Shown piece by piece: positions 2,657 through 64,000 of a stretch of 64,000 nucleotides of DNA. Source of the stretch: a virus; IMG/VR virus record IMGVR_UViG_3300036795_000115, positions 4,739 through 68,738 of that record, one strand, 5' to 3'. The translations under genes were made by a program, and so were the position numbers. How positions within the stretch are numbered: position 1 is the first letter of the stretch; every line of letters begins with the position of its first letter. Under the pieces are notes generated by a model. That model did no database searches and was not told the origin of the DNA. It worked only from the letters and a program-made list of their open reading frames with translations.

Positions 2657-3436
2657 ATGCACAACTACTCAACCTGCGCCACATGCGGTGAGCTGATGGA
2701 AGTCACCGAATACGACCAGCGCGCACACCCCATGTGCGAGTACACCCCCGACGTGCTCACCGCACTCATCGCAGACTTCGTGGCGGCGGCAACCACAGGC
2801 AACGACGACCTCGCCGACCAACTCGAACACGCCATCCACCTGTACGAAACCGCCCCACCACAGTTCGGTGCAGCAGCACTCGCCTACGCCGCATGGGGAT
2901 GGCCCGTGTTCCCACTCCGGGCAAAAGGGAAAATCCCGCTCGGCAAATGCGGCGACTGCCGAACCACCAAATGCGACGGCCCCACCACATGCGGGCACCA
3001 ACTATGCCACGGGTTCAAAGACGCCACCACCAACCCCAACCGCATCCGCGAATGGTGGACCGAACACCCCCAAGCCAACATTGGGCTCGCCACCGGGCAC
3101 ACCTTCGACGTCGTCGACGTAGACCTCCACGACCCCGAACGCCCCAACAAGCCCAACGGGATCTGGGCGTGGTTCGACCTCGAAAACGACCCCGCACACC
3201 CACCCGTCCACGGTGTCGTCACCACCCCCTCAGGACGACACCTGTACGTCACCCCCACCGGCGGTGGGAATCTCGCCGGCGTGTTCCCCGGCATCGACTA
3301 CCGAGGTGTCGGCGGATACGTCGTCGCACCACCCTCCGTCAGGGAGAACGGCGTCCGCTACCAGTGGTCCATGCGGCCATCACCCCAAATCACCGATGCC
3401 ACCAAAAGCGCCGGTGAGAGGCTGAAAGCCGCCTAA
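2657..3436 (+). CDS. bifunctional DNA primase/polymerase (Prim-Pol) domain protein
   Basis: YAAWGWPVFPL, HGFKDATT, ANIGLATG, VVDVD, TPSGRHLY, IDYRGVGGYVVAPPS. Confidence 0.92.
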   Translation: MHNYSTCATCGELMEVTEYDQRAHPMCEYTPDVLTALIADFVAAATTGNDDLADQLEHAIHLYETAPPQFGAAALAYAAWGWPVFPLRAKGKIPLGKCGDCRTTKCDGPTTCGHQLCHGFKDATTNPNRIREWWTEHPQANIGLATGHTFDVVDVDLHDPERPNKPNGIWAWFDLENDPAHPPVHGVVTTPSGRHLYVTPTGGGNLAGVFPGIDYRGVGGYVVAPPSVRENGVRYQWSMRPSPQITDATKSAGERLKAA

Positions 3437-3439
3437 CCC

Positions 3440-4915
3440 ATGGCCAACGAGGACCACCCCTACGCGGCTGCGTTCGCCCACCGCAACCCCAAACCGACAC
3501 CACCCACCAACGGTGTCGTCACCCCCATCCTCTCCGCCGTACCCGCCGGCGACCCCGGGGCCGCCCGCTACGCCCAAGCCGCCCTCGCCAAAGAATGCGA
3601 CACCCTCGCCATCACCGGCGAAGGACAACGCAACCACGCCCTGAACAAAGCCGGATTCAACATTGCGCAGCTGGTAGCCTCCGGACACCTGAACGCGGTG
3701 GAAGCGGAAGAGGAACTCACCCAAGCAGCACTGTCCTGCGGGCTCGGGCTCACAGAAATCCGCACCACCCTCGGCAGTGCGTTCGAAGCCGGCGCCAAAC
3801 ACCCCCGCGCAGTCCCCGAACGCGAGCAGCCCACCAACGGCACCGACTTCGGCCCCGGGGTCCGTGTGGTCAGCGAAAACGACCTGCAACTCGAAGGTGA
3901 AGGCGACCCGTTCCGCCACGGTGTCGACGGGGCCACATTCGTCTTCCAGGTCGCAAGCCACGAAAAAGCGTTGTGGGGATCCAAAGATCAGGTCATCTGG
4001 TCCCCCGGGGAAGCCCTCATCATCACCGGAGCCCCCGGAGTGGGGAAAACAACCACCGTGCAGCAGCTGATCTTGGCCCGGGTCGGGTTGGCCGACCAAT
4101 TCCTCGGGTTCGACGTCGAACACACCAACAGCAAAGTGTTGTACCTGGCCATGGACCGACCCCGCCAGATCGCCCGATCCATGCGCCGCATGGTCGATGA
4201 AGGAGACCGGCAACTCCTAGAAGAACGACTGACGGTGTGGAAGGGGCCGCTCCCATATGACGTCGCCGACCGGTCCGATGTGTTACTTCGGATGGCCGAG
4301 CACTACGGGGCCGACACCATCATTGTGGACTCCGTCAAAGACGCCGCCCTGGGCCTATCGGACTCCGAGCGGGCCGGGAAGTACAACCGTGCCCGGCAGC
4401 GCGCGTTGGCCGGTGGCATCGAGATCGTGGAGATCGCCCACCAGGTCAAAAAAGGCACTGCCGGGGCCGCCCCGAAGACCCTCGCCGACGTCCACGGTGG
4501 CATGGAGCTCACCGCCGGCGCCGGGTCCGTGGTGCTCATTTGGGGGGAGGCAGGTGACCCCATTGTGGAGTTCCTTCACCTGAAGCAACCGGCCGAAGTG
4601 GTGGGGCCGTTGACGTTGGTTCACAACCATGAGGCGGGGCGGACGACGCTCGAAAATCGGGCCGATGAGGCTGACGTTTTGCGGGGGGAGCACTGGAAGT
4701 TGTGGACCATCTCCGATGTTGCGGTGGCGCTGTCCGATTCGGACAGGAAGCCGTCTAAGTCGGTGGTTGAGCGGACCCGGCGGAAGCTCGAGAAGCTCGT
4801 CGAAAACCACCTTGCGGTGAAGGTTCGCGGGGACCTTAACGCTCGTGGTGGTTCCCCTGAGTGGCGTTACCGGTGGGCGGAGTCGCCGCCGGAGACGTCC
4901 TGGGGCCCGGAATGA
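3440..4915 (+). CDS. RecA-like/SF4 replicative helicase (AAA_25-like)
   Basis: Walker A GAPGVGKTT; VLYLAMD; Walker B IIVDS; AHQVK; follows Prim-Pol. Confidence 0.85.
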   Translation: MANEDHPYAAAFAHRNPKPTPPTNGVVTPILSAVPAGDPGAARYAQAALAKECDTLAITGEGQRNHALNKAGFNIAQLVASGHLNAVEAEEELTQAALSCGLGLTEIRTTLGSAFEAGAKHPRAVPEREQPTNGTDFGPGVRVVSENDLQLEGEGDPFRHGVDGATFVFQVASHEKALWGSKDQVIWSPGEALIITGAPGVGKTTTVQQLILARVGLADQFLGFDVEHTNSKVLYLAMDRPRQIARSMRRMVDEGDRQLLEERLTVWKGPLPYDVADRSDVLLRMAEHYGADTIIVDSVKDAALGLSDSERAGKYNRARQRALAGGIEIVEIAHQVKKGTAGAAPKTLADVHGGMELTAGAGSVVLIWGEAGDPIVEFLHLKQPAEVVGPLTLVHNHEAGRTTLENRADEADVLRGEHWKLWTISDVAVALSDSDRKPSKSVVERTRRKLEKLVENHLAVKVRGDLNARGGSPEWRYRWAESPPETSWGPE

Positions 4916-58509: not shown

Positions 58510-58593
58510 GTGCCTCTGCTCCAGGTAGCTCTGGTGCGGGTGGAAGTCCTGGCTAGCAGTTCGAGCTGCTGGTCAGGGCGTTGGGAGTCTCAA

Positions 58594-58638
58594 CCGTACA
58601 TAAGAGGATTGGTCAGGACGAACCCGTACTATACACGG
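58594..58638. other. candidate attP
   Basis: Imperfect dyad CCGTACATAAGAGGATTGGTC-AG-GACGAACCCGTACTATACACGG just upstream of the integrase. Confidence 0.45.
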
Positions 58639-60105
58639 GTGCCGTCCAGTCAGGGAACCTCTCACGCACCGTTACGGGTGGGACTTTACTGCCGCGTCAG
58701 CCACGATCCCACTGGTCGGGGAACTTCCGTAGCTGACCAGGAGAAAGAAGGGCGCGCTTGGTGCGCCGCGAACGGGCACCTGGTGGCCTGGCTGATTGTC
58801 GACAACGACATCAGTGCGAGCCGGTACAGCAAGAAGGAACGCCCCGGGTTCACCGAAGTGCAGCGACGGTTGGCCGGCGCCGACCCGGTGGAGATCCTGT
58901 GGGCGTGGGAGTCGTCGCGGTTCACCCGCGACCTGAAGGTGTACGCGCAAGTCCGGGCGCTGTGCGAGCGCTACGAGGTGCTGTGGTCCTATCACGGCAA
59001 GACCTACGACATGTCCCGGGCGGACGACCGGTTCGCCACCGCGCTGGACGTGATCCTGGGCGAGCGGGCGTCGGACGACACGAGTGACCGAGTACAGAGA
59101 GCGGTGGATGCCCGGGTGGAAGCCGGTACAGCGCACGGACGAGTCCCGTACGGCTACCGGGCTGTCTACCACCCGCACACCGGGGCTCCGATCGGCCGGG
59201 AACCGGACCCGGGCACCGCGCCGGTAGTGAAGGAGATCGTGCGCCGGGTACTCGGCGAAGAGCCCAGCTACCAGATCGCCAAGGATCTCAATCAGCGCGG
59301 CGTGATCTCCCCGCACGGGTTCCGACTGCAGCGCACCGGTCAGCCGGTGGACGACGCTCGACCGTGGACGATCAGCCTGGTCCGGCAGCTCGCGGTGAAC
59401 CCCACCTACGCCGGACTGCGGACATACGACGGCAAGGTGAAGGGCGATGCCACCTGGGAGGCGCTGATCTCCGGCGCGGAGCATCGGCGCGTGGTGGCCC
59501 GCTTTTCCGACCCGGCACGGAAGGGAACTCGGGACCGCGAGGTGAAGCACCTGCTGGCTGGGATCGTGCTGTGCGGGGTGTGCGGCGACCCGTGCCGGCG
59601 GGTGGTGAACCACGGCAGCCCCAGCTACTCGTGCCGCACCAACCACTGCGTGTCCCGGGTGCAGTCGGCGGTGGACGCCCTGGTGACCGAGACGCTGCTG
59701 CTGTGGTTGGAGCGCCCCAACGCGGCGGAAGTATTCACCGACCGCGATGACAGCGCCGAGGTCGACGCGGCCGTTGCGGAGCTCGCGGAGCTGCGGGCGC
59801 GCCTCGCCGAGTTCGAGCGGTCCGCTGATCAGCCGGGCGGGATCTCCGCCGCGTCACTGGCCCGTCGGGAGGCGCATTACCTGCCACTGATCGAGGACGC
59901 CCGTCGGCGCACCATCCCGACGCACGTACCGGAGGTCATCCGGGATCTCGTGGAGGCCGAGGACGTGCGGGAACGGTGGGCGGATCTGGCCCCTTTGGTG
60001 CGACGGTCCGTGGTGCGGCACCTGATGACGGTGCGGATCATGCGGACGTCGAGTCGCGGGTCGCACGGGTTCGATCCGTCGTGCGTCGACATTGCGTGGC
60101 GGTGA
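58639..60105 (+). CDS. int: large serine recombinase (integrase)
   Basis: LYCRVS catalytic Ser, DNDISAS, RPGF, SSRFTR, PYGY, NPTYAG, LLAGIVLCGVCG Zn ribbon. Confidence 0.95.
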   Translation: MPSSQGTSHAPLRVGLYCRVSHDPTGRGTSVADQEKEGRAWCAANGHLVAWLIVDNDISASRYSKKERPGFTEVQRRLAGADPVEILWAWESSRFTRDLKVYAQVRALCERYEVLWSYHGKTYDMSRADDRFATALDVILGERASDDTSDRVQRAVDARVEAGTAHGRVPYGYRAVYHPHTGAPIGREPDPGTAPVVKEIVRRVLGEEPSYQIAKDLNQRGVISPHGFRLQRTGQPVDDARPWTISLVRQLAVNPTYAGLRTYDGKVKGDATWEALISGAEHRRVVARFSDPARKGTRDREVKHLLAGIVLCGVCGDPCRRVVNHGSPSYSCRTNHCVSRVQSAVDALVTETLLLWLERPNAAEVFTDRDDSAEVDAAVAELAELRARLAEFERSADQPGGISAASLARREAHYLPLIEDARRRTIPTHVPEVIRDLVEAEDVRERWADLAPLVRRSVVRHLMTVRIMRTSSRGSHGFDPSCVDIAWR

Positions 60106-60602: not shown

Positions 60603-61067
60603 TTAAGGACGTGCTTGCGTCCTCCCGGGCCCAGCGTCTTGGTCCGTTTGGTCTAACGTGCCGTTATAAAATGCAACGTCCGCTACCTCATTCGGACGCA
60701 GTGGCGGCTGTGGGTTACGGCCAGGTGGCTGAGGGTCTAGTTCGTCCAGGTGATCAGTGACGCGCGCCTTGATCTCCTCGAGCAATTGCAGGGTACTGAG
60801 TTCGGCGGCGTCGACGGGGGGCGCCGGCGGCTGACCCGCTTCCTCAGAAGTGATGTAGCCGGCCGCGACGAGCGCGGTGAGAATGGGGATGCCCAGCGCG
60901 TCCGCGAGTTTGCGGATGTTGGCTAGCGACGGTTCCTGGTGGGGACGGTTCACCCACTGACTGATCGCACTGGGCGGCAGCCCTGATTCGGTGGCGGCGC
61001 GAGCGTAGTTCCAGCCTCGTTGGTCGAGTTGCTGTTTGACCCACTCGCCCCAGGTCTGTGCTGTCAC
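60603..61067 (-). CDS. XRE-family immunity repressor
   Basis: AATESGLPPSAISQW...PSLANIRKLADALG...ALVAAGYIT; leaderless TATAGT-7-GTG. Confidence 0.9.
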   Translation of the reverse strand: MTAQTWGEWVKQQLDQRGWNYARAATESGLPPSAISQWVNRPHQEPSLANIRKLADALGIPILTALVAAGYITSEEAGQPPAPPVDAAELSTLQLLEEIKARVTDHLDELDPQPPGRNPQPPLRPNEVADVAFYNGTLDQTDQDAGPGRTQARP

Positions 61068-61218
61068 GGCACGCACTATACGTGCGCGCACGCTACACGC
61101 ATACGCGATCGGTGTCCCCCTTTAGGCAGGTATCTCAGCTACCTACGGGGGAGGACGTGCGTGCCCGCTACAGATCAACGGGGATGTGCGCGTGGAACAA
61201 GTCATGCATGCGCGCCTG

Positions 61219-61247
61219 TTGCGTCAGCGCATGCCCGGTGCTAGCGT
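61219..61247 (+). promoter_or_regulatory. early lytic promoter
   Basis: TTGCGT-17-TAGCGT, divergent from the repressor; surrounded by GCGCACG/CGTGCG-type repeats. Confidence 0.55.
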
Positions 61248-61296
61248 CATCAACACGTTCACCAGAAAGTCATGCGTGACCCGAAGGAGACAGTAC

Positions 61297-61560
61297 GTGG
61301 ACCCCACCGTGAAGCTCAGAGCGGGGCAGCTCCGTAAATATCGGGCGATGGCGAACCTGATGAGAGACACGGACCTCGCTGACCGGATGGGCGTACACCG
61401 CTCGACGGTAATCCGAACCATCTCCGGCGACGCGGTCCTGTCCGGTCGGTTCATCGCGGCCCTAATTACGATCTTCCACCCGCTCACGTTCGACGACCTG
61501 TTCGAAATCTGCCCCCCGCTCACCAGCGAGCAGGAACACGAACACGCCGGCGCGGCCTGA
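61297..61560 (+). CDS. Cro-like HTH protein
   Basis: DLADRMGVHRSTVIR...FIAAL...FDDLFE; AAGGAG RBS. Confidence 0.85.
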   Translation: MDPTVKLRAGQLRKYRAMANLMRDTDLADRMGVHRSTVIRTISGDAVLSGRFIAALITIFHPLTFDDLFEICPPLTSEQEHEHAGAA

Positions 61561-61724
61561 TGGACGAGCACCTGACCGGGCTCAGCCCGGAACTCATCGC
61601 ACTCATCCGCAAGGCCGCAGCGGCGCACGTTGTCGCGGCGCCGGCACCGACCGCTGATCAGATCAAGGTGCTGGCGGCGATCTTCCGGGTGCGGGACACC
61701 ACCGTCAGCCGAGGAGCTGCGTGA
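61560..61724 (+). CDS. small protein (APAPT.DQ..LAAIF)
   Basis: TGATG coupling at both ends; below the ORF-track cutoff. Confidence 0.6.
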   Translation: MDEHLTGLSPELIALIRKAAAAHVVAAPAPTADQIKVLAAIFRVRDTTVSRGAA

Positions 61725-62134
61725 TGGAAATCCCCGAAGAGCCAGCCAAGTACGGCACATTCGAACGCGCCTTCGAGCGAGGCATCGAGGCGGCCCTCGA
61801 GATGCACGCCGCCCCTCCGCACTTCTGCGACCTACCCCTCACGGCGTGCCGGCGGCCGCGAACCAGGCCGCCCGGCGTGAGTAAGCCTCTCCCCTGGCAG
61901 TGCGACGTCTGCGGAAACGTGTGGAAGTGGCACACCCGGCACGTCGGCAAGCACGTCATTACCGGCTGGGACCTCCGCTGGGAGGGCTTCGTCGACTGGC
62001 ACACCAGGAAGCTGCTGAACATGGCCGACGTCGCCGCGATGGAAGCCCGCAACGCCGAGATCCGCCGCGAGCACGACGAGATCCGCCGAGTGGTCCAGGA
62101 ACGCGAAGCGGAACTCAAGGAGCAGCAGCTCTAA
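61724..62134 (+). CDS. hypothetical Zn-ribbon protein
   Basis: HFC...WQCDVCG..W. Confidence 0.65.
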   Translation: MEIPEEPAKYGTFERAFERGIEAALEMHAAPPHFCDLPLTACRRPRTRPPGVSKPLPWQCDVCGNVWKWHTRHVGKHVITGWDLRWEGFVDWHTRKLLNMADVAAMEARNAEIRREHDEIRRVVQEREAELKEQQL

Positions 62135-62150
62135 CCCCTCAGATTTCCAA

Positions 62151-62210
62151 GGTCAGGCCTGGTCAGGTCTGGTACGGCAAGGCGTAGCGGGGCAAGGCAC
62201 GGCAAGGGCA
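62151..62210 (+). repeat. GGY-NN pentamer array 1 (12 units)
   Basis: GGTCA GGCCT GGTCA GGTCT GGTAC GGCAA GGCGT AGCGG GGCAA GGCAC GGCAA GGGCA. Confidence 0.9.
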
Positions 62211-62230
62211 CTACCAACAACAGGAGAGAC

Positions 62231-62815
62231 ATGAAGGTTCGGATCACGATGACGGGAACGTCGCCGCTTCTACTGCACAACGTGCGACTGGCTTCCCCGC
62301 TCGACCCGTACTCAAAGCGGCTGAAGGCGCTGAACTCGAAGCGCAACAAGACCGAGGACGACCGCCTGGCCGTGGCTCGCCTGGAGTGGGAGGCCGGTTG
62401 GTACTGGGATGACGAGCTCGGCCCCATTCTCCCCACAGCGTCGATCCGTAAGTGCCTGATCGAGGGAGCTCGACTCACGAAGGCCGGTAAGAAGATCGAG
62501 CGCGGTGTTACGCCCCTCGATTTCCAGGTGCCGCTCGTTTACAACGGCCCCCGCGACCTGGTCGGGCTGTGGGGTGACGGTATCGGGACTGAGTTCGTCG
62601 ACCTGCGCTCCGCTGTCGTACAGCGCAACAAGGTCGACCGTTGCCGTCCGAAGATCCGCAACTGGTCAGTCAGTTCCGACTGGCTTATCGACCCGTCCGT
62701 AATTGAGCTGGACGAGTTCGCCGGAGTGACCGAAACCGCCGGCGCAGTTCAGGGCGTCGGAGATGCACGGTCACTGATGCACGGCCGTTTCGACGCAAAG
62801 GTCGAAACCATCTGA
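62231..62815 (+). CDS. RAMP/Cas7-like RNA-binding protein
   Basis: N-terminal RITMTGTSPLLLHN strand, ILPTASIRKCL, RCRPKIRNW, C-terminal Gly-rich loop AGAVQGVGDAR..HGRF; CAGGAG RBS. Confidence 0.7.
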   Translation: MKVRITMTGTSPLLLHNVRLASPLDPYSKRLKALNSKRNKTEDDRLAVARLEWEAGWYWDDELGPILPTASIRKCLIEGARLTKAGKKIERGVTPLDFQVPLVYNGPRDLVGLWGDGIGTEFVDLRSAVVQRNKVDRCRPKIRNWSVSSDWLIDPSVIELDEFAGVTETAGAVQGVGDARSLMHGRFDAKVETI

Positions 62816-62819
62816 TTTT

Positions 62820-62909
62820 GGCTAGGCACGTCAGGGTCCGGTCCGGTGCGGCGTGGTTGGTTCGGGTTCCGCTGGTCTTGGTTCGGCTAGGCCCGGCTAG
62901 GCAGGGGAG
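62820..62909 (+). repeat. GGY-NN pentamer array 2 (18 units)
   Basis: GGCTA GGCAC GTCAG GGTCC GGTCC GGTGC GGCGT GGTTG GTTCG GGTTC CGCTG GTCTT GGTTC GGCTA GGCCC GGCTA GGCAG GGGAG. Confidence 0.9.
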
Positions 62910-62915
62910 AAGAAA

Positions 62916-62961
62916 TGAGCGAGCAGCACACACCAAGGTGCGAGTCCTTGGCGCTCACGCA
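62916..62961 (+). ncRNA. tRNA-like separator A
   Basis: TGAGCG-11nt-CCAAGG-TGCGAGT-CCTTGG-CGCTCA-CGCA. Confidence 0.75.
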
Positions 62962-62968
62962 AGTTGAT

Positions 62969-63043
62969 GGCACGGCATGGCATGGCGGTGTTCCGTTGGG
63001 CTTGGCGTGGCCCGGTGCGGTCCGGCATGGCTTGGCAAGGAAT
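62969..63043 (+). repeat. GGY-NN pentamer array 3 (15 units)
   Basis: GGCAC GGCAT GGCAT GGCGG TGTTC CGTTG GGCTT GGCGT GGCCC GGTGC GGTCC GGCAT GGCTT GGCAA GGAAT. Confidence 0.9.
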
Positions 63044-63088
63044 GGGCGAACGGCATACCTCGGAGTTCGAGTCTCCGGCGCCCACGCA
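63043..63088 (+). ncRNA. tRNA-like separator B
   Basis: TGGGCG-11nt-TCGGAG-TTCGAGT-CTCCGG-CGCCCA-CGCA. Confidence 0.75.
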
Positions 63089-63089
63089 C

Positions 63090-63149
63090 GACGTGGCGGG
63101 GTACGGCGACGCAAGGCACGGCCTGGCCTGGCGTGGTTCGGCAGGGGTT
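63090..63149 (+). repeat. GGY-NN pentamer array 4 (12 units)
   Basis: GACGT GGCGG GGTAC GGCGA CGCAA GGCAC GGCCT GGCCT GGCGT GGTTC GGCAG GGGTT. Confidence 0.9.
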
Positions 63150-63168
63150 TCACAACACGGAGGTTGCA

Positions 63169-63705
63169 GTGTTTGAAGTGAAGAACGAAGTTCCGCAGTG
63201 GCAACGGGTCTACGACCTGATCGTCGCAGCGGAGATTGATCAGGTCATCAGCTACGACGAGTTCGACGCAGCTCTCGGTCTCAACTTCCGCGCGTACTCG
63301 CGCCCCGGCCTGGACAAGGCCACGAAGGCGCTCGAGCACAACAACCGCCGCACCGTTGAGGTAGTCCGCAACAAGGGCTACCGAGTGGTACGAGCTGAGG
63401 AACACGAACGGCTCGCCCGAAAGCACCAGCTCAAGGGACTGCGCCAGACAAAGCGGTCCATGCGCAAGGTTCGCTCGGCGGACCGCTCGCAGCTGTCCTC
63501 TACGGACGGTCAGCGCCTGGACGCCATGGAGGTCCACTACGGGCAGCTTGCCGCCGCTCAGCGCCGTAACGCCACTCGCATCGAAGAGGTGGACAGCGCC
63601 CGCAAGGCGGACAAGCGCGACACCAGTGAAGAGCTGGCGATGCTGGCTAGCCAGCTGGAGCGTCTGCAGGCCCGGATCGAGAAGCGGGACCGGAGCGCGA
63701 CCTAG
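63169..63705 (+). CDS. wHTH/coiled-coil protein downstream of the repeat locus
   Basis: GGAGG RBS then GTG; VISYDEF..ALG...VRNKGYRVV wing. Confidence 0.7.
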   Translation: MFEVKNEVPQWQRVYDLIVAAEIDQVISYDEFDAALGLNFRAYSRPGLDKATKALEHNNRRTVEVVRNKGYRVVRAEEHERLARKHQLKGLRQTKRSMRKVRSADRSQLSSTDGQRLDAMEVHYGQLAAAQRRNATRIEEVDSARKADKRDTSEELAMLASQLERLQARIEKRDRSAT

Positions 63706-63802: not shown

Positions 63803-63991
63803 ATGGCTACCCTAACGGCCCAGTCACCGAAAGTTCTACGGTTGGTGACGCGAATCGCCCAGATGGTGTCGCACGGTCACCACCGGTCAACCCACAGCCG
63901 TCACGGTGGCTCCGTGGGCACAGGCCACACCATTCTCATCGCCCGTTCAGCCCAGCGGCACGGCGGCAAGCACCGGGCGGTGCAGGCATGA
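63803..63991 (+). CDS. small His-rich protein
   Basis: ATG start; ends GKHRAVQA with an ATGA overlap. Confidence 0.45.
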   Translation: MATLTAQSPKVLRLVTRIAQMVSHGHHRSTHSRHGGSVGTGHTILIARSAQRHGGKHRAVQA

Positions 63992-64000
63992 CCCGACCCC

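What the first reader, a model, noticed from the sequence alone, without database searches (positions are those of the whole stretch)
62151..63705. RAMP/Cas7-like gene with phased GGY-NN arrays: candidate phage RNA-guided system with a non-contiguous guide code
Seen: four non-coding arrays (62151-62210, 62820-62909, 62969-63043, 63090-63149) keep a strict 5-nt phase of near-constant GG(C/T) plus a variable dinucleotide. Each ends in GGCA(A/G)GG. One array lies upstream of a 194-aa gene and three lie downstream. The protein has RAMP-like hallmarks: an N-terminal strand RITMTGTSPLL, a central LP.ASIRK.L, and a C-terminal Gly-rich loop GVGDAR..HGRF. The NN strings differ between arrays: (1) CA CT CA CT AC AA GT GG AA AC AA; (2) TA AC AG CC CC GC GT TG CG TC TG TT TC TA CC TA AG; (3) AC AT AT GG TC TG TT GT CC GC CC AT TT AA; (4) GT GG AC GA AA AC CT CT GT TC AG. 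Established: Cas7/RAMP proteins polymerise along RNA with a fixed nucleotide step. Inference: each subunit grips one GGY and presents NN, so each array is a guide whose target is spelled by the dinucleotides. No nuclease, Cas1/2 or classical CRISPR array is present, so repression of a competing phage or host gene is more likely than cleavage. The locus is in the early lytic operon right after Cro. From memory it resembles a recently reported class of phage RAMP plus GGY/NN-repeat systems (called VIPR); I cannot verify that here.
Basis: partly seen in the sequence, partly recalled or inferred. Interest (0 to 1): 0.96.

Follow-up and report, generated by a model that had tools for sequence, protein, structure and literature searches.

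The report
Phage VIPR system, tRNA-like guide separators
This temperate phage of high-GC bacteria carries a VIPR system, a CRISPR-related RNA-guided DNA silencer first described in 2026 preprints, so it is a new example of a known kind whose guide RNAs are separated by small tRNA look-alikes instead of ending in the published pseudoknot.

Summary
Four phased GGY-NN arrays occur only here and only on the + strand of the 64-kb window. The 194-aa protein matches the solved SUSP1 Vipr protein (PDB 36pp_D, E 4.8e-25), and its confident model has a Csm3/Cas7 fold. The downstream 178-aa gene is a vap1-like winged-helix protein.

Two ~42-nt tRNA-like modules (acceptor stem plus T-arm) follow arrays 2 and 3. 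A covariance model finds 98 such modules in related loci, all on the vipr strand, with strong covariation. Term searches of three VIPR preprints gave no hit for 'tRNA'; supplements were closed. Arrays 1 and 4 lack the module and abut the ribosome-binding sites of vipr and vap, a layout conserved in relatives.

No target of any guide was found. Silencing of a rival element is therefore inferred from homology. This scan has noted the same system, including the tRNA-like tails, on other genomes.

The parts
62151..62210 (+). vrRNA array 1: 12 in-phase units (10 exact GGY). It ends GGCAA GGGCA and has no tRNA-like module. A CA-rich leader, the SD AGGAGA (62222-62227) and the vipr ATG (62231) follow directly.
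   Evidence: An array directly upstream of vipr with no module is seen in 16 related loci.
62231..62815 (+). vipr: 194-aa RAMP/Cas7-like Vipr protein
   Evidence: PDB 36pp_D 'SUSP1 Vipr protein', E 4.8e-25 over residues 4-191; family profile E 7.6e-43. AF2 pLDDT 89. Foldseek top hits are Csm3/Cas7, E about 3e-6. phrog_4652, E 3.5e-42, function unknown. No Pfam family.
62820..62909 (+). vrRNA array 2: 18 in-phase units (13 exact GGY), ends GGCAG GGGAG
62916..62957 (+). tRNA-like module 1: 6-bp outer (acceptor-like) stem, 11-nt linker, 6-bp inner stem with 7-nt loop TGCGAGT, then ACGCA
   Evidence: Covariance model R1 hit at 62912-62963, 56.9 bits, E 7.6e-10. This fold is the MFE structure. Covariation.
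62969..63038 (+). vrRNA array 3: 14 in-phase units plus a terminal GGAAT that runs into module 2
63043..63084 (+). tRNA-like module 2: same geometry, canonical T-loop TTCGAGT, then ACGCA
   Evidence: R1 hit at 63039-63090, 66.3 bits, E 5.8e-12. ARAGORN miscalls 62997-63085 as an 89-nt 'tRNA-Ala'. Rfam gave no tRNA match at E<=10.
63095..63149 (+). vrRNA array 4: 11 in-phase units (9 exact GGY). It ends GGCAG GGGTT and has no tRNA-like module. A leader, the SD GGAGG and the GTG start (63169) of the vap-like gene follow directly.
   Evidence: An array directly upstream of vap with no module is seen in 15 related loci.
63169..63705 (+). vap1-like accessory gene: 178 aa, N-terminal winged helix plus long coiled-coil helices
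   Evidence: Syntenic homologue downstream of vipr in 34 of 104 held loci. hhalign of family profile A5 against wV8 gp94: probability 94.8%, E 4.8e-8. gp94 is the gene after a Vipr that differs from SUSP1 Vipr at 4 of 195 aligned residues. AF2 pLDDT 90.9. Only weak Foldseek hits, mostly winged-helix DNA-binding domains. phrog_5926, function unknown.

Best explanation
This is a VIPR (Viral Interference Programmable Repeat) locus in a complete 68.6-kb temperate phage genome. It comprises vipr, a vap1-like winged-helix gene and four vrRNA arrays, and lies downstream of a divergent cI-like/Cro-like pair. By homology to SUSP1 VIPR, Vipr protomers polymerise along each GGY-NN tract, one protomer per pentamer. 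They sequester GGY and present the NN dinucleotides, which read double-stranded DNA with one skipped base per unit (NNx). This silences transcription of a rival mobile element, and the Vap protein assists.

This actinobacterial clade has a specific layout. The arrays between vipr and vap form one tightly packed precursor, in which each array except the last is followed by a ~42-nt tRNA-like module (acceptor-like stem stacked on a canonical T-arm, with a linker that mimics the D-loop contact). I infer that host tRNA-processing enzymes cut the precursor at these modules: RNase Z or an equivalent on the 3' side, and probably RNase P on the 5' side.

Shown here: protein homology and fold, array statistics, synteny, and the covarying structure and strand bias of the module. 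Inferred: transcription, RNP assembly, DNA silencing, processing by RNase P/Z, and the target.
For: Protein. E 4.8e-25 to PDB 36pp_D SUSP1 Vipr, and E 7.6e-43 with the family profile. The alignment, read against the residues named in 10.64898/2026.04.26.720927 sections 5-6, conserves H17->H16, K33->K32, R138->R139, D177->D178 and R179->R180. All five are invariant in the 29-sequence alignment A1. The model has pLDDT 89. Its best solved-structure matches are Csm3/Cas7 subunits, with 82 hits at E<=0.001.

Arrays. 75 of 91 distinct homologous loci have a same-strand array within 1.5 kb, against 2 of 91 on the opposite strand.

Vap..

tRNA-like module. Model R1 found 98 matches at E<=0.01 in 449,614 bases searched on both strands. 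All 98 are on the vipr strand, and the window holds exactly two. 94.8% of cells pair, against 74.6% in shuffles (0/500 reach it) and 39-63% with slid partners. There are 211 double-change cells against 46.9 in shuffles. The G53-C61-like closing pair is invariant in 97/97 rows. All 7 modules with loop TGCGA have AG in the linker, while the other 91 have GG (89) or TG (2). This fits a D-loop/T-loop-like tertiary contact.

Packing. The commonest distance is 5 nt from a module to the next array (32 of 98) and 3-4 nt from an array to its module (39 of 98). Any cut between consecutive guides must therefore fall at the module.

Other support for processing. In loci L043 and L044, ARAGORN-called tRNA genes follow arrays within about 4-40 nt. 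In L102 and L104 a module precedes an array with no array upstream of it. The order [array]-vipr-(array-module)n-array-vap recurs across the 27 loci that carry modules.
Against: No target was found for any of the four guides. On the phage's own genome the best NNx scores were 15/22, 21/34, 17/28 and 14/20, all within the range of shuffled-unit controls. The same held in 429,899 bases of held loci. Exact 10-unit NNx patterns for vr1, vr4, vr3 and vr2 gave 0 matches in the viral contig collection. vr3 with up to 3 mismatches gave 0 matches in 401 genomes of one actinobacterial order.

The aromatic residue that stacks on G2 in SUSP1 (W178; Y176 in P. fulva) is Ala179 here. Ala occurs at this position in 2 of the 29 sequences of A1.

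Folding energies of the two modules are not better than shuffles (z +0.82 and -0.53), so the structure rests on covariation. The outermost acceptor pair holds in only 40% of rows, giving an 11-bp stack rather than the 12 bp of tRNA. Seed sequences for R1 were picked by a scan that required pairing, and alignment A3 is fitted to the model, so the percentage paired is inflated. The strand bias and the double changes are less affected.

In SUSP1 the 3' tail stays on the mature vrRNA, which argues against an RNase P cut at the 5' side of the module.
Confidence: 0.9

Rival explanations
1. The tRNA-like module is the 3' tail of the mature vrRNA. It would be a structural cap that nucleates 3'-to-5' Vipr assembly and protects the end, like the SUSP1 pseudoknot. 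Only its 3' side would be cut, and RNase P would not separate it from the repeats.
For: It sits where the published ~40-nt tail sits and has a similar length. In SUSP1 the pseudoknot stays on the vrRNA, and subunits near it are the best resolved. 84 of the 96 modules tallied directly follow an array. The terminal units GGCA(A/G)GG before the module are conserved.
Against: Arrays 1 and 4 here, and the arrays before vipr (16 loci) and before vap (15 loci) in relatives, have no module. A module precedes arrays with nothing upstream in L102 and L104. ARAGORN-called tRNA genes take the same place in L043 and L044; released tRNAs would not remain attached as tails.
Confidence: 0.35
2. Arrays 1 and 4, which lack a module and abut ribosome-binding sites, are mainly cis-acting leaders. 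Vipr coating its own and vap's 5' UTR would feed back on translation. On this view they are not free guides.
For: The last repeat lies 11-12 nt from the SD of vipr and 9 nt from that of vap. The layout is conserved in 16 and 15 related loci. The leaders after the two arrays resemble each other.
Against: Their NN tracts are as varied as those of arrays 2 and 3. In SUSP1 the vrRNA upstream of vipr is a genuine guide. Nothing tested here bears on translation.
Confidence: 0.25
3. The system works from the prophage to protect the lysogen against superinfecting phages, rather than as an early lytic weapon against resident elements.
For: The phage is temperate: it has a serine integrase at 58510-60105 and a cI-like repressor. 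The paper reports both uses and finds 56% of VIPRs in proviruses.
Against: The locus lies on the Cro-like side of the divergent switch with no promoter-like site found. That scan covers only sigma-70-type consensus, which is a poor model for actinobacteria.
Confidence: 0.3
4. The pentamer tracts are inert tandem repeats, and the protein does something unrelated.
For: No transcription, binding or target was shown here.
Against: Strand-specific co-occurrence with the protein in 75 of 91 loci. Homology to a protein solved in complex with such RNA. Three constrained and two free positions per unit.
Confidence: 0.02

Closest known systems
Type II VIPR systems of Escherichia phage SUSP1 and the Pseudomonas fulva prophage (bioRxiv 10.64898/2026.04.26.720920; structures in 10.64898/2026.04.26.720927; PDB 36pp)
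   Same: A homologous Vipr protein, about 35% identical to Felixounavirus Vipr genes by tblastn, with E 4.8e-25 to the SUSP1 chain. GGY/NN vrRNA arrays of about 11-18 units on the same strand, one upstream of vipr and three downstream. A vap1-like winged-helix accessory gene. No nuclease, cas gene or CRISPR array in the operon. Phage-borne.
   Different: The three downstream arrays lie between vipr and vap, not after both genes. The 3' extension is a tRNA-like acceptor/T-arm module. In wV8, whose Vipr differs from SUSP1's at 4 of 195 residues, the tail reads by eye as an H-type pseudoknot. Two of the four arrays have no tail and abut ribosome-binding sites. Ala replaces the aromatic residue that stacks on G2. 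The host lineage is actinobacterial. I could not see which of the seven published types holds this clade, because supplements were closed.
VIPR arrays interspersed with hammerhead ribozymes (types I and V; fig. S19 legend of 10.64898/2026.04.26.720920, seen as a passage)
   Same: A structured RNA element between adjacent vrRNAs that would release individual guides from one precursor.
   Different: The separator here is a tRNA mimic that would borrow host RNase P/Z rather than cleave itself. No hammerhead or other Rfam family was found in 61900-63400 at E<=10.
Class 1 CRISPR backbone subunits Cas7/Csm3/Cmr4
   Same: RRM/RAMP fold with G-loop and thumb. The best solved-structure matches are Csm3 of type III-A and Cas7 of type VII complexes. 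The subunits polymerise along a guide RNA with a fixed step.
   Different: Sequence identity is only 10-14%. There are no cas partners and no CRISPR repeats. The step is 5 nt with three bases sequestered, against 6 nt with one flipped. The guide is non-contiguous.
tRNA-punctuated RNA processing: the mascRNA module at the 3' end of MALAT1, and engineered polycistronic tRNA-gRNA arrays (both recalled; no call or paper checked)
   Same: A tRNA-shaped element next to a functional RNA, where RNase P and RNase Z cleavage defines the neighbour's ends.
   Different: The module here has no D or anticodon arms: a ~11-nt linker replaces them. It is viral and bacterial. Cleavage is not shown.

Membership tests
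VIPR system | Vipr protein homologous to the characterised Vipr proteins | tested here: met
   phmmer against PDB sequences: 36pp_D 'SUSP1 Vipr protein', E 4.8e-25, residues 4-191 of 194. Profile A1: E 7.6e-43.
VIPR system | Minimal RAMP fold: RRM core, glycine-rich loop, thumb | tested here: met
   AF2 model with pLDDT 89 and pTM 0.83. Foldseek against PDB: Csm3/Cas7 chains top the list, E 3e-6 to 1e-4, TM about 0.45-0.55, 82 hits at E<=0.001. The G-loop GVGDAR...GRF aligns to SUSP1 GVGDWR..GRF. I did not inspect the thumb in 3D.
VIPR system | Residues that hold GGY and the target backbone (SUSP1 H17, R138, D177, W178, R179, K33) | tested here: met
   Five of six are conserved (H16, R139, D178, R180, K32). 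W178 is Ala179 (alignment read). The five are invariant in A1.
VIPR system | vrRNAs of tandem GGY/NN (YNNGG) repeats, 9-16 units in the studied clades, beside vipr on its strand | tested here: met
   Four arrays of 12, 18, 15 and 11 in-phase units, found on the + strand only. Array 2 is longer than the published range and has five degenerate units.
VIPR system | Conserved structured 3' tail after the repeat tract | tested here: inconclusive
   Arrays 2 and 3 are followed by a conserved, covarying ~42-nt structure. It is tRNA-like rather than a pseudoknot, and arrays 1 and 4 have none.
VIPR system | vap accessory gene | tested here: met
   Family profile A5 against wV8 gp94: hhalign probability 94.8%, E 4.8e-8. 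gp94 is the gene after a Vipr that differs from SUSP1 Vipr at 4 of 195 residues. The pairwise BLASTP is weak, E 0.012. Winged-helix plus coiled-coil model.
VIPR system | vrRNAs are expressed and bound by Vipr | not testable with these tools
   No RNA run was listed for this stretch.
VIPR system | Natural DNA targets that match the NN code under the 1-nt skip rule (>=80% NN match), and no self-target | tested here: inconclusive
   No self-target: best matches are 61-70%, as the paper reports for its own systems. No external target was found.
CRISPR-Cas class 1 (Cas7 family) | CRISPR repeat-spacer array and cas partner genes (Cas5, large subunit, Cas6 and so on) | tested here: not met
   No such genes among the five operon proteins scanned. 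Only 5-nt phased tracts are present. The rest of the 64-kb window was not scanned for cas genes.
tRNA genes | Cloverleaf with D arm, anticodon arm, T arm and acceptor stem | tested here: not met
   Only the acceptor-like stem and T arm are present, and an ~11-nt linker replaces the rest. Rfam gave no tRNA hit at E<=10. The ARAGORN 'tRNA-Ala' at 62997-63085 borrows array 3 for its missing arms.

The most novel reading that the evidence does not exclude
An actinobacterial clade of VIPR systems has swapped the self-contained pseudoknot tail for a miniature tRNA. Host RNase P and RNase Z would then cut a polycistronic guide precursor into single vrRNAs, a natural counterpart of engineered tRNA-gRNA arrays. 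The module-less arrays fused to the 5' UTRs of vipr and vap would let Vipr titrate its own synthesis and that of its partner.
Probability: 0.4. Interest if true: 0.6.

Novelty: new member of a known kind. Interest (0 to 1): 0.4.

Why it matters
The locus adds an actinobacterial temperate phage to a family whose experiments so far, in the parts of the four papers I read, are in E. coli and Pseudomonas systems.

The useful extra is the guide-maturation layout. A covarying tRNA-like module sits between guides, and module-less arrays are fused to the leaders of both protein genes. If host tRNA enzymes do the cutting, this is a third way of releasing VIPR guides, beside the ribozyme-interspersed and staggered arrays already in print. 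It would also give a compact natural design for multiplexed guide expression.

It has practical value for annotation too. ARAGORN miscalls these modules as long tRNAs. In Gordonia phage Trine, an annotated CDS (gp40) covers both the array/module stretch and the vap-like match.

Tried and rejected
Target search. I applied the published NNx rule in several ways, and nothing stood out.
- Own genome, all four skip rules, with 100 shuffled-unit controls each: nothing above the controls. The 3-nt-skip perfect hits are the arrays themselves.
- 429,899 bases of held loci: nothing above the controls.
- Exact 10-unit patterns in viral contigs for vr1, vr4, vr3 (units 4-13) and vr2 (units 1-10): 0 matches each.
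- vr3 full length with up to 3 mismatches in five records and in 401 genomes of the order of G001: 0 matches, and the reversed control also gave 0.
These searches need near-perfect matches and cover a small sample, so they say little.

Looking for this phage's relatives as likely targets. The cI-like protein found none in viral contigs. The integrase found two distant fragments at 24-26% identity. Megablast of window 20000-44000 against phage records found nothing.

Expression. No RNA holder was listed for 62100-63250.

Other checks that gave little.
- Rfam at E<=10 over 61900-63400 gave only two chance-level snoRNA matches inside vipr.
- Folding energies of the spacers and leaders were not distinctive.
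- The sigma-70 promoter scan found nothing. A terminator-like hairpin at 62787-62808 lies inside the 3' end of vipr, and I did not pursue it.
- Foldseek on the Vap model gave no hit at E<=0.001. The profile of the Vap family against PDB sequences gave nothing below E 0.07.

Considered and rejected. The ARAGORN tRNA-Ala is not a real tRNA. ATG 62977 is not the vap start.

Limits of the literature check. I did not see supplementary tables or data of the VIPR papers, since supplements are closed. They may hold this clade's type and perhaps its tail structure. 'Not in print' for the tRNA-like module rests only on term searches of three preprints and one listing. In the fourth paper (10.64898/2026.10.21.760802) I searched only the VIPR passages.
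Full report
**What is there**

The window is all but the first 4,738 bases of a 68,738-base virus record. The record's ends repeat exactly over 127 bases, so it is probably a complete, circularly permuted genome.

Gene order near the finding is as follows.
- 58510-60105: a serine-integrase-like ORF.
- 60603-61091 (-): a cI-like HTH repressor (Pfam HTH_3, E 6.9e-11; repressor PHROGs, E about 1e-15).
- 61186-61560 (+): a Cro-like HTH gene, transcribed divergently (phrog_3642, E 2e-14).
- Two small ORFs of unknown function.
- The locus in question.

The locus reads: array 1 (62151-62210), a 194-aa gene (62231-62815), array 2 (62820-62909), a 42-nt structured module (62916-62957), array 3 (62969-63038), a second module (63043-63084), array 4 (63095-63149), and a 178-aa gene (63169-63705).

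I counted GGY at ten successive 5-nt steps. The - strand never exceeds 6, and neither did any of 50 Markov simulations.

Of 56 in-phase units, 44 are exact GGY. Positions 1-3 are G 51/56, G 53/56 and C/T 52/56. Positions 4-5 are close to uniform, and all 16 dinucleotides appear. 'Strict' overstates it: the phase is kept through 12 degenerate units. The discovery paper also notes frequent internal degeneracy of vrRNAs.

**What it is**

It is in print. I read the following.
- 10.64898/2026.04.26.720920: the whole Results, Methods sections 18, 20, 25, 26 and 27, and term searches.
- 10.64898/2026.04.26.720927: abstract, sections 5 and 6, and a term search.
- 10.64898/2026.10.15.759431: abstract, outline and a term search.
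- 10.64898/2026.10.21.760802: the passages that mention VIPR.

The 194-aa protein has no Pfam family and belongs to a PHROG of unknown function (phrog_4652). It matches one solved chain, 36pp_D 'SUSP1 Vipr protein', at E 4.8e-25 over residues 4-191. A profile of 29 relatives matches the same chain at E 7.6e-43.

I read that alignment against the residues named in the cryo-EM paper. The histidine and aspartate that bond G1 (H17, D177), the thumb arginine on G2 (R138), the arginine on Y3 (R179) and the lysine on the target backbone (K33) are all kept, as H16, D178, R139, R180 and K32. All five are invariant in the family. The aromatic residue that stacks on G2 (W178; Y176 in P. fulva) is Ala179 here. 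Only one other of the 29 relatives shares this.

A ColabFold model is confident (pLDDT 89, pTM 0.83). Its best structural matches are Csm3/Cas7 backbone subunits of type III-A and type VII complexes (E about 3e-6, TM about 0.5, 82 hits at E<=0.001). That Foldseek library stops at 8 April 2026, and no Vipr chain appeared among the listed hits.

tblastn against phage records found 130 records. Among them are Felixounavirus phages, three Mycobacterium phage records (two of LittleE, one of prophiBWHA-1), Gordonia phages (MakoManhole, Trine) and Pseudomonas phages. Every match I saw was annotated as hypothetical or left unannotated.

**Relatives carry the same arrays**

I fetched 98 loci that encode relatives from genome, viral and metagenome collections. 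After removing identical genes, 91 remain. Of these, 75 have a phased GGY array within 1.5 kb on the gene's strand and 2 have one on the other strand. Among the 38 loci at 45% identity or more, 37 have one. The 16 loci without an array are mostly distant (33-43% identity) or truncated contigs.

**The accessory gene**

The 178-aa gene starts at GTG 63169. The family's conserved N-terminus (MFE) fixes this start. A homologue lies downstream of vipr in 34 of the 104 loci held, and the 3 to 1,263 nt between the two genes is filled by arrays.

Its family profile aligns to gp94 of Escherichia phage wV8 at hhalign probability 94.8%, E 4.8e-8. The pairwise BLASTP is weak, E 0.012. gp94 is the gene after a Vipr that differs from SUSP1 Vipr at 4 of 195 residues. 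By position it is therefore the vap1 counterpart.

The model (pLDDT 90.9) shows an N-terminal winged helix, with the nearly invariant GYR wing, followed by two long helices. Foldseek gave no hit at E<=0.001, and the weak hits are mostly winged-helix DNA-binding domains. This agrees with the paper's description of DNA-binding, winged-helix-like Vap proteins in several types, including type II.

**The tRNA-like modules**

Between arrays 2/3 and 3/4 lie two elements of identical geometry. Each has a 6-bp outer stem, an 11-nt linker, and a 6-bp inner stem closed by a 7-nt loop (TGCGAGT or TTCGAGT). The outer stem's 3' strand stacks directly on the inner stem, and ACGCA follows. ARAGORN calls 62997-63085 an 89-nt tRNA-Ala, using array 3 for the missing arms. 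Rfam finds no tRNA there.

A pattern scan for such minihelices in all held loci gave 81 on the vipr strand and 6 on the other. I built a covariance model from 19 of them and searched 97 sources (449,614 bases, both strands). It found 98 matches at E<=0.01, every one on the vipr strand. Exactly two are in the window, at 62912-62963 and 63039-63090.

On the model-fitted alignment the results were as follows.
- 94.8% of cells pair, against 74.6% in shuffles (0 of 500 reach it) and 39-63% when partners are slid.
- 211 cells carry changes on both sides, against 46.9 in shuffles.
- 11 of 12 pairs covary.
- The five inner acceptor pairs hold in 99.6% of cells and the six T-stem pairs in 98.6%.
- The outermost pair holds in only 40%.
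- The loop-closing G-C is invariant in 97/97 rows.

The loop reads TTCGA in 80 of 98 matches, which is the canonical T-loop (that label is my knowledge, not a call). All seven modules with TGCGA have AG instead of GG in the linker, and none of the other 91 does. The seven lie in four loci that also hold the common form. I read this as a D-loop/T-loop-like tertiary contact. That reading is an inference.

Two caveats apply. The seeds were chosen by a pairing filter, and the alignment is fitted to the model, so the percentage paired is inflated. The strand bias, the double changes and the linker-loop association are less affected. Folding energy alone is not distinctive.

**Layout of the clade**

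In the 27 loci with modules the order is [array]-vipr-(array-module)n-array-vap. Of the 115 arrays tallied, 84 are followed by a module. The 16 that stand before vipr and the 15 before vap have none and run straight into the ribosome-binding site, as arrays 1 and 4 do here.

Packing is tight. The commonest gap from a module to the next array is 5 nt (32 of 98), and from an array to its module it is 3-4 nt (39 of 98).

In two lower-GC loci (L043, L044), ARAGORN-called tRNA genes follow arrays within about 4-40 nt. In Gordonia phages MakoManhole and Trine, a module precedes an array with no array before it. In wV8, whose Vipr is near-identical to SUSP1's, the tail reads by eye as an H-type pseudoknot with no T-loop, as the paper describes.

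**How it most likely works**

By homology (inferred, not shown here), Vipr coats each repeat tract with one protomer per pentamer. It hides GGY and presents NN, which pairs with double-stranded DNA while skipping every third base. Binding represses transcription, and Vap enhances the effect.

For maturation, the packing leaves no room for promoters or terminators between arrays 2, 3 and 4. They must therefore come from one precursor cut at the modules. A cut in the 5 nt after the module is needed under any reading, and that is where RNase Z cuts a tRNA (my knowledge).

Whether RNase P also cuts before the module is open.
- For a cut: the tRNA genes in the same position, modules with no array upstream, and arrays that function without a module.
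- Against a cut: the SUSP1 tail stays attached and caps the filament.
I put processing at both sides at about 0.4-0.5 and a tail retained after a 3' cut at about 0.35.

Arrays 1 and 4 may be guides released in some other way, or leaders through which Vipr limits translation of vipr and vap. Nothing here decides between these.

**Targets**

None was found. See Tried and rejected. The absence of self-targets matches the paper's controls. The biological role (rival phage, satellite or superinfection defence) is therefore inferred from the family.

**Novelty**

This is a new member of a known kind. The family, its code and its structures were published in 2026.

The tRNA-like separators and the leader-fused arrays do not appear in the text of the three VIPR papers that I term-searched: 'tRNA' has 0 occurrences in each, and 'RNase' or 'RNase P' also has 0. 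Their data set of 667 systems, drawn from a PSI-BLAST search of NCBI NR, probably includes this clade.

This scan has already reported the same system with tRNA-like tails on other genomes: 41 notes in at least 35 genomes. My tests agree with those notes.

Noticed in passing
window 63874-64000 and the first 127 bases of the record (outside the window): The 68,738-base record begins and ends with the same 127 bases, so it is probably a complete, circularly permuted phage genome of 68,611 bases. The VIPR operon is then followed by the genes at the record's start.
   Followed up: partly
window 62765-62770 (Vipr residue 179): The G-loop reads GDAR. SUSP1 has W, P. fulva has Y, and 27 of 29 relatives have Y/F at the position that stacks on G2. 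The window and its closest relative also carry one extra residue just after it (GDARSLMHGRF).
   Followed up: partly
window 62997-63085: ARAGORN calls an 89-nt 'tRNA-Ala (ggc)' that is really array 3 plus tRNA-like module 2. Similar long false tRNA calls occur in L003, L013 and L026.
   Followed up: yes
L043:4225-4475; L044:3440-4645: In two lower-GC relatives (Vipr 46% identical), ARAGORN-called tRNA genes (Leu, Leu, Ser and others) are interleaved with the GGY-NN arrays. They start about 4-40 nt after an array's end.
   Followed up: partly
L104:3080-3362 (Gordonia phage Trine, MH271318.1): The annotated CDS gp40 (locus 3091-3894) spans two to three tRNA-like modules, a GGY-NN array and the vap-like match at 3406-3783. 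Its 5' part is probably non-coding RNA.
   Followed up: no
L001 (Mycobacterium phage LittleE, NC_042322.1): The VIPR locus (gp34 Vipr, gp33 Vap-like, arrays and modules on both sides) sits inside the tail gene cluster, between the tape measure gene and the tail sheath and minor tail genes, on the opposite strand.
   Followed up: no
window 61721-62134: A 137-aa ORF directly upstream of array 1 has no family match (Pfam none, PHROG E>0.06). It carries a CxxC...H motif (CDVCGNVWKWH) and a charged C-terminal helix. I did not check whether it belongs to the system.
   Followed up: no
window 62787-62808: A terminator-like hairpin followed by a short T-run lies at the very 3' end of vipr, just before array 2. 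It could attenuate read-through into the arrays.
   Followed up: no
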